The notes under the pieces: model-generated
What the model saw: the letters and a program-made list of their open reading frames with translations, nothing else
What the model was told of the DNA's origin: nothing
The model's database searches: none
Shown: piece after piece, positions 15,105 through 16,627 of the stretch
How positions within the stretch are numbered: the first letter of the stretch is position 1
Layout: the number at the start of each line of letters is the position of its first letter
Position numbers and translations under genes: made by a program
Origin: Escherichia phage WPEC3
Sequence record: PV611058
Reading direction: 5' to 3' (one strand)
Length of the DNA: 64,000 nt

Positions 15105-16034
15105 TTATACAGCCATTGGTGCTTTGATTGTTGGCATTGGATTGTAATTAACTAATTTGAAAGAATCCATAGTGAAATCTTCAATATCAGTAATAGTAGG
15201 ATCTAGCCATAATTCTGGTAATGTACGTGGTTCACGTTGGAGTTGCTCTTTTACTTGTTCAATATGGTTTTGGTAGATATGGCAGTCGCCACCATTCCAA
15301 ATAAATTCACCAACATCTAACCCTGTAATTTGTGCAATCATATGAGTTAGTAGTGAGTAACTACTAATATTAAATGGCACACCAAGGAATAGATCAGCAC
15401 TACGTTGATGAAGAATACAACTTAGTTTACCCTGTACAACACAAAACTGCACAAAGCTATGACAGGGTGGCAAAGTCATAGCATCAAGCTCACCAACGTT
15501 CCATGCACTTAGAATGTGACGACGACCGTATGGATCAGTATTGATACCTTCAATAACTTGTTTTAGCTGGTCAGTTACACGACGCATAATAACACCATGT
15601 GAACCAGTATAATCAATAACTTTATACCCTTTATCTTTTAGTTCTTGAATTTCTTCAGTACTGGAACTGAATTTATAATCTTCCCATTCACGCCATTGTT
15701 TACCATAAACTGGGCCAAGCTCACCATCAGAATACCCAAGGCTTACACCTTGATTAAGGTAGTTGTCTGTCCAAATTGTTTTCTTTTCTACATCACGTGT
15801 CCCGTGTAAAATTTCACACAGACGACGCTCATCGTGAGAACCTTCAATAAACCATAACAATTCTGAAGTCATTGCTTTCCAAGCCAAACGTTTAGTAGTT
15901 ACTGCTGGGAAACCTTCTTTTAGGTCAAAACGCATTTGTTGTCCGATTAGCTTGATAGTGCCAACACCAGTACGATCAACGCTTTCGACACCTTGATCCA
16001 GAATTCTTTGATATAGTTCTTGTAGTTGTTTCAT
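15105..16034 (-). CDS. thyA: thymidylate synthase (ThyA type)
   Basis: Full-length match to ThyA signatures: N-terminal DRTGVGT...VTTKR...ELLWF, active site LPPCH, and QRSADLFLGVPFNISSY with Asn (dUMP-specific) rather than the Asp of dCMP hydroxymethylase. ATG start verified. Confidence 0.92.
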   Translation of the reverse strand: MKQLQELYQRILDQGVESVDRTGVGTIKLIGQQMRFDLKEGFPAVTTKRLAWKAMTSELLWFIEGSHDERRLCEILHGTRDVEKKTIWTDNYLNQGVSLGYSDGELGPVYGKQWREWEDYKFSSSTEEIQELKDKGYKVIDYTGSHGVIMRRVTDQLKQVIEGINTDPYGRRHILSAWNVGELDAMTLPPCHSFVQFCVVQGKLSCILHQRSADLFLGVPFNISSYSLLTHMIAQITGLDVGEFIWNGGDCHIYQNHIEQVKEQLQREPRTLPELWLDPTITDIEDFTMDSFKLVNYNPMPTIKAPMAV

Positions 16035-16627
16035 TTTACGTCCTTGAAAAATGTAATAAAGTGTTCCATGTGTTTTTGTGTAGCATTACGTGAACCAATC
16101 CCAGTCCAATTACCGTGTGGTGCTGGTATTGAGAATGTTTCAGTAAACTCTTTCAGTACTGTATCATAATAAAATACAGAGCGAGTGTTCATATCATAAC
16201 AATATATTTCTGGATTGTCAACTGAATCCATATACATCTGTACGGCCCATGCAGTTCCACCTGAAACTTGCGTAGGTGATGTAATATTTGCAATACAATA
16301 TACTCTTTTTGTATTAAGTATCTGGTAACTATTCCTTGCAAGTAAGTTATATACATACGAACCAGGCTTAGGAACTTTACGGCGTAAAGAGTAACATGCA
16401 ATGTTTAATTGTTTTAATATTGAACTATCACAAAGGATATTGGGTGGAATTTCTAATATAGTATTTTCATCTACGCTGCTTTGGTGACCCTTGAATGAAA
16501 AATTTATTACTTCAAATCCATTGTCTTTTGCATAGATAGAAAAAAGGCGGTCAGCACCTGCTGCCCCGCCACTGAAACATACATTAGATAAACCATTGAT
16601 TGCTTCATCTAATTCTATTTTATTCAT
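16031..16627 (-). CDS. Rossmann-like protein with SGGAAGAD motif (DprA/SLOG-like); function unknown
   Basis: Motif CFSGGAAGADRLF resembles the nucleotide-binding loop of DprA/Smf and SLOG-family proteins; stop overlaps the thyA start by 4 nt (ATGA). Confidence 0.4.
   Translation of the reverse strand: MNKIELDEAINGLSNVCFSGGAAGADRLFSIYAKDNGFEVINFSFKGHQSSVDENTILEIPPNILCDSSILKQLNIACYSLRRKVPKPGSYVYNLLARNSYQILNTKRVYCIANITSPTQVSGGTAWAVQMYMDSVDNPEIYCYDMNTRSVFYYDTVLKEFTETFSIPAPHGNWTGIGSRNATQKHMEHFITFFKDVK

What the first reader, a model, noticed from the sequence alone, without database searches (positions are those of the whole stretch)
15105..16627. Thymidylate synthase translationally coupled to a DprA/SLOG-like protein
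The gene upstream of thyA overlaps it by ATGA and encodes a protein with an SGGAAGAD nucleotide-binding loop like DprA/Smf or SLOG-family proteins, not the dihydrofolate reductase usually found next to thymidylate synthase in T4-like phages. It may bind or process a nucleotide or nucleic acid in concert with dTMP synthesis.
Basis: partly seen in the sequence, partly recalled or inferred. Interest (0 to 1): 0.4.

Follow-up and report, generated by a model that had tools for sequence, protein, structure and literature searches.

The report
Permuted SLOG nucleotide-binding protein beside thymidylate synthase
A jumbo E. coli phage carries a small, uncharacterised nucleotide-binding (SLOG-fold) gene pressed against its thymidylate synthase gene; the fold call is right, but the pairing is specific to this phage lineage and databases already list the protein, so the finding is real but fairly ordinary.

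Summary
thyA (15105..16034, minus strand) and a 198-aa ORF (16031..16627, minus strand) overlap by ATGA, and the ORF encodes SGGAAGAD.

The window is an Asteriusvirus-type jumbo phage (99.8% identical to fEgEco12 and WPEC5), not a T4-like phage.

The thyA link is lineage-specific. It appears in 15 of 80 loci, all Rak2-like. The junction varies among them: a 4-nt overlap, a 1-nt overlap, a 2-nt gap, or an intervening gene. In 37 of 65 distant loci the neighbour is a dNMP kinase, immediately upstream in 29. The window has that kinase 15 kb away, beside the tail sheath gene.

Most likely the protein binds or processes a small nucleotide ligand. That ligand belongs either to the phage's dNMP pool or to nucleotide-based host immunity, as Iyer et al. 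predicted for viral SLOG domains. No biochemistry exists. This is a new member of a known kind, of modest interest.

The parts
16031..16627 (-). 198-aa stand-alone SLOG-fold protein of a cpYpsA-like, circularly permuted type (PHROG 768)
15105..16034 (-). thyA, canonical thymidylate synthase (309 aa, with insertions relative to E. coli ThyA)
   Evidence: PF00303 at 3e-101. NF002497 at 342.5 bits against a cut-off of 327. 45% identity to E. coli ThyA with the catalytic Cys, Arg, Asn, His and Tyr conserved.
16031..16034 (-). ATGA stop/start overlap between the SLOG gene and thyA. An AAGGA Shine-Dalgarno-like element lies about 6 nt upstream of the thyA ATG, inside the SLOG 3' end (about 16041..16045).
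   Evidence: Sequence. AAGGA is conserved in 121Q and Rak2, but the overlap is not: 1-nt overlap in 121Q and a 2-nt gap in Rak2.
16550..16573 (-). Motif SGGAAGAD (residues 19-26): the glycine-rich loop with the GxD signature of YpsA-clade SLOG domains
   Evidence: S19 98%, G20 100%, G24 100% and D26 100% conserved in 242 sequences. GxD/E motif as described in PMC6459960.
16322..16336 (-). Motif R98-N-x-x-Q102 on a helix, the counterpart of DprA 'RNR' and LOG 'xRK'
   Evidence: R98 100%, N99 95%, Q102 98% conserved. The correspondence to the DprA and LOG motifs is from my own knowledge of those families.
16244..16261 (-). Motif G123-G-T-A-W-A128, the second glycine-rich loop. Q130 sits where LOG has its catalytic Glu.
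   Evidence: G123, G124 and T125 100%, W127 97% conserved. Position 130 is Q in 76% and E in 7%.
16088..16102 (-). C-terminal strand motif G176-I-G-S-R180. It is equivalent to the FIRST strand (xGSR) of DprA, so its C-terminal position marks the circular permutation.
   Evidence: G176 98%, G178 100%, R180 97% conserved. In 7 of 10 doubled sequences of other family members the best DprA-model stretch runs from this strand across the artificial junction into SGGAxGAD. The window protein itself gave no DprA hit.
16633..17286 (-). 217-aa protein of unknown function (PHROG 15894), 5 nt upstream of the SLOG gene and probably in the same transcription unit
   Evidence: Conserved upstream of the SLOG gene in all 14 Rak2-like IMG/VR loci (cluster c10). 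Not similar to ThyA.
17289..17519 (-). 76-aa protein (PHROG 13789), the probable first gene of the 4-gene unit
   Evidence: A terminator-like hairpin at 17595..17616 and a promoter-like site at 17554..17581 lie upstream (consensus matches only).
15074..15103 (.). Bidirectional terminator-like hairpin immediately after thyA, where the minus-strand unit meets the plus-strand tail-fibre genes
   Evidence: 11-13 bp stem with T-runs on both strands.
32002..32628 (-). dNMP kinase, the gene that lies immediately upstream of SLOG homologues in distant phages. Here it sits directly upstream of the tail sheath gene (29244..31907).
   Evidence: An HMM built from the neighbour cluster hits it at E 1.4e-78. 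PF21448 at 46.9 bits against a cut-off of 27.1. Annotated as such in WPEC5.

Best explanation
The 198-aa ORF is a stand-alone SLOG-superfamily domain, a Rossmannoid nucleotide-binding fold. It belongs to a large, phage-borne, experimentally uncharacterised family. That family is circularly permuted relative to DprA, YpsA and LOG, and its closest solved structure is 3imk.

Its four invariant motifs (SGGAxGAD, RNxxQ, GGTAW and the C-terminal GIGSR) correspond, by comparison with other SLOG proteins, to the four elements that line the ribose-5'-phosphate pocket in those proteins. It therefore most likely binds, and possibly hydrolyses, a small ligand of the nucleoside-5'-phosphate type. A role as a DprA-like loader of RecA on ssDNA is less likely.

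In this phage the gene is the third of a tightly packed four-gene unit that ends with a bona fide thymidylate synthase. The ATGA overlap plus an AAGGA ribosome-binding site inside the SLOG 3' end allow coupled expression.

The pairing with thyA is specific to Rak2-like jumbo phages. In distant phages the same family is translationally coupled to a dNMP kinase. The recurrent theme is therefore deoxynucleoside-monophosphate handling.

Shown: the fold, the motif conservation, the permutation in the family, and the gene neighbourhoods. Inferred: a small-nucleotide ligand. Speculative: whether the role is metabolic (dNMP pool) or defensive (destroying or sequestering nucleotide-derived immune signals).
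For: Fold:
- AF2 pLDDT 97, pTM 0.92.
- Foldseek against PDB finds only 3imk as a meaningful hit.

Family:
- PHROG 768 at E 4.7e-27.
- 2832 representative clusters at E <= 1e-3.
- Invariant pocket motifs.

Permutation:
- In doubled sequences of relatives the DprA model aligns colinearly across the C-to-N junction in 7 of 10.
- The DprA hit improved in 2 of 5 permuted sequences.

Context:
- A dNMP kinase (PF21448; PHROG 139 at E 1e-44) lies within 5 kb in 37 of 65 distant loci. It is immediately upstream on the same strand in 29, with a 4-nt overlap in 11, although the SLOG proteins there share a median of only 44% identity and the surrounding genes are arranged in several different ways.
- thyA lies downstream in 15 of 15 Rak2-like loci.
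- Fusions to nucleotide-processing domains occur: histidine phosphatase (P0149) and NADAR (P0195).

Against a DNA-binding role:
- Single domain, neutral pI of 6.4 with a family median of 7.0, and below Pfam's DprA cut-off.

Literature:
- Iyer et al. 2022 (PMC9503650) independently place viral SLOG domains mostly in the YpsA-like clade and predict roles with small nucleotide ligands.
Against: - No member of this family has been tested biochemically, and the ligand is unknown.
- The kinase-SLOG-sheath block may be inherited synteny within one broad group of myoviruses that share sheath and adaptor gene clusters, so the loci are not independent observations.
- If my motif register is right, the position matching LOG's catalytic Glu is Gln in 76% of members, including this one. 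That argues against LOG-type N-glycosidase chemistry.
- DprA and ShosA, which do bind DNA, are also structural neighbours (PMC11961720).
- In two loci, including the one from Caulobacter phage Cr30, the neighbour is an SbcC/gp46-like ATPase by my reading of its sequence.
- For the window protein itself the permutation rests on motif order. Its own doubled sequence gave no DprA hit.
- I could not inspect model coordinates, so the pocket assignment rests on motif correspondence.
Confidence: 0.6

Rival explanations
1. Counter-defence protein. The SLOG domain binds (as a sponge) or cleaves NAD+/ADP-ribose-derived or other nucleotide-derived immune signals such as cADPR isomers, as Iyer, Burroughs, Anantharaman and Aravind predicted for viral YpsA-like SLOG domains. 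Its placement next to thyA or the dNMP kinase would then be incidental. This is a sub-case of 'small nucleotide ligand' but differs in biological role from a dNMP-pool function.
For: - Predictions in PMC9503650 and PMC7824862.
- The YpsA-clade GxD signature is present.
- The family domain is embedded in giant 1600-3400-aa phage proteins in 6 of 79 loci and in crAss-like phages. Co-resident domains include NADAR, a weak DUF4326 match directly N-terminal to the SLOG domain, and an AlkB-like oxygenase just below threshold.
- The same strand of the window carries a Macro-like gene (34777..35253, just below the Pfam cut-off) and a Nudix gene (36073..36486). Iyer et al. report that these co-occur with SLOG.
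Against: - No adjacency to Macro or NADAR here; the nearest is about 18 kb away.
- No similarity to any PADLOC model, ThsA SLOG included, at E <= 0.1.
- The strongest recurrent neighbour is a metabolic enzyme, the dNMP kinase.
- The protein was not listed among virion proteins of the relative CBB. In phAPEC6 the ORF was mis-annotated, so its absence there is uninformative.
Confidence: 0.28
2. DprA-like recombination mediator, as the PHROG and GenBank label says. The protein would bind phage ssDNA and help load a recombinase or protect replication intermediates.
For: - PHROG 768 name.
- Sub-threshold Pfam DNA_processg_A hits in relatives.
- Iyer et al. 2021 suggest jumbo-phage DprA/Smf copies may act as extra ssDNA binders.
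- Fusion to a 3'-5' helicase in one BFVD hit.
- An SbcC-like neighbour, by my reading, in the Cr30-type loci L028 and L035.
Against: - The window protein has no Pfam DprA hit at E < 1.
- The family is circularly permuted relative to DprA.
- No SAM-like N-terminal or winged-helix C-terminal domain; the 198 aa form one domain.
- Neutral pI.
- 3imk is a clearly better structural match than any DprA.
- In 52 of 80 loci a dNMP enzyme lies within 5 kb, and the usual surroundings are tail genes, not replication or recombination genes.
Confidence: 0.1
3. The thyA adjacency reflects only compact phage gene packing, and the SLOG protein is a dispensable accessory gene with no link to thymidylate metabolism.
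For: - 22 of 83 junctions in this region overlap, 6 of them by 4 nt.
- The SLOG/thyA junction is not conserved: ATGA here, TAATG in 121Q, a 2-nt gap in Rak2, and a roughly 115-aa gene inserted in 12 other Rak2-like loci.
- thyA has its own conserved AAGGA site.
- Only 85 of 50,697 isolate phage records carry a homologue.
Against: - When the gene is not next to the dNMP kinase it sits next to another dNMP enzyme.
- Pocket residues are under strong purifying selection across more than 2800 clusters.
- This rival addresses the linkage only and does not say what the protein does.
Confidence: 0.35

Closest known systems
cpYpsA (Pfam PF12694, 'circularly permutated YpsA SLOG family'). PDB 3imk from Syntrophus aciditrophicus probably belongs to it.
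   Different: The window protein does not hit PF12694 at all, and relatives reach only 16-19.5 bits against a cut-off of 26.2. It is about 40 residues longer, with an extra three-stranded beta region (residues 141-164). cpYpsA itself has no known function. That 3imk belongs to PF12694 is my recollection and was not tested here.
DprA/Smf (PF02481) and the DprA-like antitoxin ShosA
   Different: Circularly permuted relative to the DprA model. No flanking SAM or winged-helix domains. Below the Pfam cut-off. Neutral pI. Its genomic context is tail genes plus nucleotide-metabolism genes, not competence or recombination genes.
YAcAr / DUF2493 (PF10686, 'YspA, cpYpsA-related SLOG family')
   Same: The only Pfam family the window protein touches: E 0.0012 across the SGGAAGAD region. 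One GenBank record labels the protein DUF2493. Iyer et al. 2021 report this family in jumbo phages.
   Different: The score is 19.1 bits against a cut-off of 28.2. The match covers only 30 residues (15-44), so membership is not established.
LOG / PpnN nucleotide 5'-monophosphate N-glycosidases
   Different: The PGGxGTxxE catalytic Glu position is Gln in 76% of the family, and in this protein (the register is my inference). No Pfam Lysine_decarbox/LOG hit. Not permuted in LOG.
T4 frd-td (DHFR-thymidylate synthase) gene pair
   Same: A thymidylate synthase gene with a tightly abutting upstream partner in a large myovirus.
   Different: The partner is not a DHFR. The phage is not T4-like. In the relative CBB the DHFR is encoded far from TS. 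That frd and td are adjacent in T4 is from my own knowledge.

Membership tests
SLOG (SMF/DprA-LOG) superfamily | Rossmannoid three-layer alpha/beta fold whose closest structural neighbours are SLOG proteins | tested here: met
SLOG (SMF/DprA-LOG) superfamily | Conserved glycine-rich loops that contact the nucleotide (GGxxGxD/M and a second G-G/S-T loop) | tested here: met
   SGGAxGAD and GGTAW are conserved at 97-100% in 242 sequences.
PHROG 768 ('DprA-like DNA recombination-mediator protein') | Significant match to the PHROG profile over most of its length | tested here: met
   E 4.7e-27, residues 4-164 against profile positions 23-184 of 191. The name is an annotation, not a tested function.
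DprA/Smf (PF02481) | Score above Pfam's gathering threshold (29.6 bits) | tested here: not met
   The window protein has no hit at E < 1. Native relatives score 11.8-26 bits.
DprA/Smf (PF02481) | Linear order of elements: GSR strand, then SGxAxGxD loop, then RNR helix, then SG(S/T) loop | tested here: not met
   GIGSR is C-terminal (residues 176-180) and SGGAAGAD is N-terminal (19-26). In doubled sequences of relatives the DprA model aligns across the C-to-N junction in 7 of 10. The window protein's own doubled sequence gave no DprA hit.
DprA/Smf (PF02481) | Accessory SAM-like N-terminal and winged-helix C-terminal domains (present in many DprA proteins); ssDNA binding and RecA loading | tested here: not met
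   The domains are absent: 198 aa form one domain. DNA binding and RecA loading cannot be tested with these tools.
cpYpsA (PF12694) | Score above Pfam's gathering threshold (26.2 bits) | tested here: not met
   No hit for the window protein. Relatives P0209 and P0221 score 19.5 and 17.4 bits.
cpYpsA (PF12694) | Circular permutation that places the first SLOG strand at the C-terminus | tested here: met
   Motif order and the doubled-sequence test on relatives. The test was made against the DprA model, not directly against YpsA.
YAcAr / DUF2493 (PF10686) | Score above Pfam's gathering threshold (28.2 bits) | tested here: not met
   19.1 bits, E 0.0012, residues 15-44 only.
LOG-type nucleotide N-glycosidase | Catalytic Glu of the PGGxGTxxE motif | tested here: not met
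   The equivalent position 130 is Q in this protein. Across the family it is Q in 76% and E in 7%. The register is inferred from motif alignment, not from a structural superposition.
Thymidylate synthase ThyA (PF00303 / NF002497), for the downstream gene | Equivalog-level score plus the catalytic Cys (PCH), the RSxD arginine, the dUMP-specifying Asn, and the folate-site GPVYGxQWR | tested here: met
   C191, R212/D215, N223 and GPVYGKQWR are all present.

The most novel reading that the evidence does not exclude
The family is a catalytic or sequestering 'guard' of the phage deoxynucleotide pathway. In this reading it is a permuted SLOG enzyme or sponge that acts on a deoxynucleoside monophosphate or a non-canonical derivative such as dIMP, dITP or a modified dNMP. 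It would be co-inherited with the dNMP kinase (or with ThyA in Rak2-like phages) because phage dNMP kinases are themselves exploited by host immunity. The example is the Kongming system, which uses the phage kinase to make dITP; T5 counters it with the 5'-deoxynucleotidase Dmp. The SLOG protein would be a second, unrelated solution to the same problem.
Probability: 0.1. Interest if true: 0.7.

Novelty: new member of a known kind. Interest (0 to 1): 0.3.

Why it matters
If the SLOG protein works on the dNMP pool, it would add a component to phage deoxynucleotide metabolism, a pathway considered well mapped since work on T4. It would also give a first function to a family of more than 2800 sequence clusters that annotation pipelines currently label 'DprA-like recombination mediator' on thin grounds.

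If instead it removes nucleotide-derived immune signals, it would be a testable example of the viral SLOG counter-defence role that Aravind's group predicted.

Either way, the practical lesson is that the current database label is probably misleading. As it stands, the finding is a correct fold assignment for an already catalogued, uncharacterised phage protein.

Tried and rejected
1. Sequence searches against solved structures, with the single protein and with the family profile, gave only noise.
2. NCBIfam and PADLOC gave no hit for the SLOG protein.
3. The AFDB50 fold library was unavailable, so annotated AlphaFold neighbours could not be surveyed.
4. BFVD returned only uncharacterised phage proteins.
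5. Moving the C-terminal segment to the N-terminus gave only weak support for the permutation, 2 of 5 sequences. The doubled-sequence test was clearer, but doubling also inflates spurious hits, so I used only the position of the DprA stretch.
6. No dNMP kinase-SLOG fusion occurs among 249 family proteins.
7. Pfam scans of the giant SLOG-containing proteins were mostly empty.
8. I considered the T5 Dmp / anti-Kongming precedent. That factor is a phosphatase, not a SLOG protein, so it is only an analogy.
9. I rejected the idea that the upstream 217-aa ORF is a second thymidylate synthase, as WPEC5 labels it, because it has no similarity to ThyA.
10. One literature search was wasted on 'YAcAr', which matched the caiman name 'yacare'. 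The founding SLOG paper, Burroughs 2015, is not held in the library.
11. Virion proteomics could not settle whether the protein is packaged. phAPEC6 mis-annotates the ORF as two fragments, and the CBB list simply lacks it.
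Full report
WHAT IS THERE

On the minus strand the window carries a 309-aa ORF at 15105..16034 and a 198-aa ORF at 16031..16627. The junction reads ...AAGGACGTAAAATGAAAC. The stop of the upstream ORF and the ATG of the downstream one share ATGA.

The downstream gene is a canonical thymidylate synthase:
- Pfam PF00303 at E 3e-101.
- NCBIfam equivalog NF002497 at 342.5 bits against a cut-off of 327.
- 45% identity to E. coli ThyA over the full length.

The upstream ORF encodes SGGAAGAD at residues 19-26 (16550..16573).

WHERE THE WINDOW COMES FROM

The 3.2 kb around the finding is 99.8% identical to Escherichia phages fEgEco12, WPEC5 and Ecwhy_1, and about 82.6% identical to PBECO4, 121Q and phAPEC6 (genus Asteriusvirus). 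All have genomes of about 350-380 kb. This is a Rak2/121Q-type jumbo myovirus, not a T4-like phage.

GenBank records already call the ORF 'DUF2493 domain-containing protein' or 'DprA-like DNA recombination-mediator protein'. In the relative CBB a DHFR gene (CBB_313) exists but lies far from TS (CBB_223) (PMC5259590).

FOLD AND FAMILY

The protein matches PHROG 768 at E 4.7e-27. In Pfam it touches only YAcAr (PF10686), at 19.1 bits against a cut-off of 28.2.

A word-indexed search found 104 homologues. A profile search of 1.84 billion representatives found 2832 at E <= 1e-3.

With a 59-sequence alignment, AlphaFold2 gave pLDDT 97.0 and pTM 0.92.

Foldseek against the PDB found only 3imk as a meaningful hit.

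CIRCULAR PERMUTATION

Four motifs are essentially invariant in 242 sequences:
- S19-G-G-A-x-G-A-D26.
- R98-N-x-x-Q102.
- G123-G-T-A-W127.
- G176-I-G-S-R180, at the C-terminus.

In DprA, LOG and YpsA the 'xGSR/xGS' strand comes first and the GGxxGxD/M loop second. This is from my own knowledge of those families. Here the order is reversed around the termini.

I tested this by doubling ten family sequences. In 7 of 10 the best stretch matching Pfam's DprA model (profile positions about 46-126) runs from the C-terminal GIGSR strand of copy 1, across the junction, into SGGAxGAD of copy 2. A simpler cut-and-paste test improved the DprA hit in 2 of 5.

The window protein's own doubled sequence gave no DprA hit. 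For this protein the permutation rests on the shared motif order and on family membership.

Pfam describes PF12694 as 'circularly permutated YpsA SLOG family', and relatives give weak hits to it. The family is thus a cpYpsA-like permuted SLOG domain that no Pfam model captures. It is a single domain without DprA's flanking domains and has a neutral pI of 6.4, with a family median of 7.0.

IS THE thyA LINK CONSERVED?

I examined the 79 best IMG/VR loci out of 183 confirmed, plus the fEgEco12 locus. thyA lies within 5 kb only in the 15 Rak2-like loci, those with SLOG identity of 50% or more. It is absent from all 65 more distant loci.

Within the Rak2-like set the junction varies:
- A 4-nt overlap in the window clade.
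- A 1-nt overlap (TAATG) in 121Q.
- A 2-nt gap in Rak2.
- A roughly 115-aa gene inserted between the two in the other 12 loci.

An AAGGA ribosome-binding site upstream of the thyA ATG is conserved in all three abutting cases, so thyA can also initiate independently.

ATGA overlaps are ordinary here. In the WPEC5 annotation of this region 6 of 83 junctions overlap by 4 nt and 22 of 83 overlap at all.

Terminator-like hairpins at 15074..15103 and 17595..17616 bracket a four-gene unit made of a 76-aa ORF, a 217-aa ORF, the SLOG gene and thyA (consensus matches only).

WHAT THE FAMILY USUALLY SITS NEXT TO

I clustered all neighbouring ORFs. The only recurrent non-structural neighbours in the distant loci are a dNMP kinase (cluster 1: PF21448 at 44.6 bits; PHROG 139 at E 1e-44) and a PTH2-like protein.

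The kinase lies within 5 kb in 37 of 65 distant loci. It is immediately upstream on the same strand in 29, with a 4-nt overlap in 11. Those SLOG proteins share a median of 44% identity (minimum 32%). The pair persists through several different arrangements of the flanking sheath, adaptor and PTH2 genes.

The window carries the same kinase family (HMM E 1.4e-78) at 32002..32628, directly upstream of the tail sheath gene at 29244..31907. The likely history is a kinase-SLOG-sheath block, from which the SLOG gene moved in the Rak2-like lineage to the end of the same strand's tail-gene cluster, next to thyA.

In 52 of 80 loci, then, a dNMP-handling enzyme lies within 5 kb. These loci share structural gene clusters and are not independent, so inherited synteny may explain part of the signal.

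OTHER CONTEXT

Fusions exist to a histidine phosphatase (P0149) and, inside a 2942-aa protein, to NADAR.

In 6 of 79 loci the domain is embedded in proteins of 1600-3200 aa. One has a weak DUF4326 match directly N-terminal to the SLOG domain, and one has an AlkB-like oxygenase match just below threshold. BFVD also shows it in crAss-like giant proteins and in a helicase fusion.

These architectures match what Iyer et al. describe for viral SLOG domains. They assign those domains mainly to the YpsA-like clade, find them in 31% of jumbo phages, and predict that they sense or degrade ADP-ribose-derived immune signals (PMC9503650; PMC7824862).

The window also carries a Macro-like gene and a Nudix gene on the same strand. 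No experimental study of this family turned up.

MECHANISM

Shown: the SLOG fold, the conserved motifs, the permutation in the family, and the neighbourhoods.

Inferred: the four motifs form the ribose-phosphate pocket as in other SLOG proteins, so the ligand is a small nucleoside-5'-phosphate-type molecule rather than DNA. My confidence is about 0.6.

Two sub-readings remain open. One is a role in the phage dNMP pool, supported by the kinase and ThyA neighbours. The other is a counter-defence role against nucleotide-derived signals, supported by the fusion architectures and the literature.

LOG-type N-glycosidase chemistry is doubtful, because the position matching LOG's catalytic Glu is Gln here and in 76% of the family (the register is inferred). 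The invariant Asp26 and the 90%-conserved His48 could still support catalysis.

The DprA-type ssDNA role is the weakest rival, at about 0.1.

VERDICT

The protein is a new, uncharacterised member of a known superfamily. Databases already list it, and a published survey has covered viral SLOG domains in general.

This analysis adds three points. The 'DprA-like recombination mediator' label is poorly founded. The thyA coupling is lineage-specific. The family's widespread partner is a dNMP kinase. Interest is modest.

Noticed in passing
window 29244..32628 (-): The dNMP kinase gene (32002..32628) sits directly upstream of the tail sheath gene (29244..31907), inside a structural module. The same kinase-next-to-sheath placement, usually with the SLOG gene between them, recurs in dozens of distant environmental phage contigs.
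   Followed up: partly
window 17629..19038 (-) and 19114..20442 (-): fEgEco12 and WPEC5 annotate the 469-aa protein as 'HNH endonuclease'. It is in fact a DUF2201 putative metallopeptidase plus VWA-like domain protein (PF13203 at 3e-36, PF09967 at 1e-21). The gene upstream of it encodes an AAA ATPase. By my own knowledge this resembles a MoxR/VWA-type pair. The ATPase homologue was detected in phAPEC6 virions.
   Followed up: partly
window 16633..17286 (-): WPEC5 labels the 217-aa ORF just upstream of the SLOG gene 'thymidylate synthase', and CMSTMSU appears to as well. It has no similarity to ThyA (BLASTP E 2.1) and matches only PHROG 15894, of unknown function. Its phAPEC6 homologue gp262c was seen in virions with one peptide.
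   Followed up: yes
L082 (phAPEC6 MK817115) 2028..2621: The phAPEC6 record splits the SLOG gene into two short 'hypothetical' CDS (gp260c and gp261c), yet tblastn shows one intact 197-aa reading frame, 88% identical to the window protein. The published virion proteome therefore could not have scored the full protein.
   Followed up: yes
window 15105..16034 (-); phAPEC6 gp259c: Thymidylate synthase was detected by mass spectrometry in purified phAPEC6 virions (3 unique peptides, 10.7% coverage; PMC7247149) but is not in the CBB virion list (PMC5259590). The gene lies at the end of the tail-gene cluster. By my own knowledge this recalls the old, disputed reports of TS and DHFR in the T4 baseplate. 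It may equally be carry-over of an abundant protein.
   Followed up: partly
window 34777..35253 (-) and 36073..36486 (-): A Macro-like protein (PF01661 at 20.2 bits, just under the cut-off of 22) and a Nudix hydrolase lie on the same strand. By WPEC5 coordinates, glutaredoxin, thymidine kinase and anaerobic RNR genes lie further along the same strand. Iyer et al. report that Macro, Nudix and SLOG co-occur in large DNA viruses.
   Followed up: partly
P0084, P0085, P0088, P0092 (about 304 aa); L016 and L031 small ORF c37 (98 aa): Some family members carry a conserved C-terminal extension of about 110 aa (…DIIYVP…GG(W/F)A.VRR…). By eye it resembles a separate 98-aa ORF that lies between the SLOG gene and the dNMP kinase in two loci. 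That would make it a module that is sometimes fused and sometimes separate. I did not test this statistically.
   Followed up: no
L057, L068, L075, L076, L079, L080; P0195, P0212, P0248: The same SLOG domain is embedded in giant phage proteins of 1600-3400 aa that are almost blank in Pfam. The only hits were NADAR, a weak DUF4326 match and a 2OG-Fe(II) oxygenase match just below threshold. These look like the 'polyvalent' proteins that Aravind's group discusses.
   Followed up: partly
window 6450..12170 (+): A 1906-aa tail-fibre protein with long, internally repeated Thr/Gly/Ser/Ala/Val-rich segments converges on the thyA unit. A strong bidirectional terminator-like hairpin at 15074..15103 separates the two.
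   Followed up: no
L004-L014, L032 (Rak2-like loci): Most Rak2-like relatives have two extra small genes that the window lacks. One is a 102-aa ORF (PHROG 2831, unknown function) that abuts or overlaps the SLOG start in my ORF calls. The other is an acidic ORF of about 115 aa, repeat-rich by eye, between the SLOG gene and thyA. The unit is therefore evolutionarily plastic.
   Followed up: no
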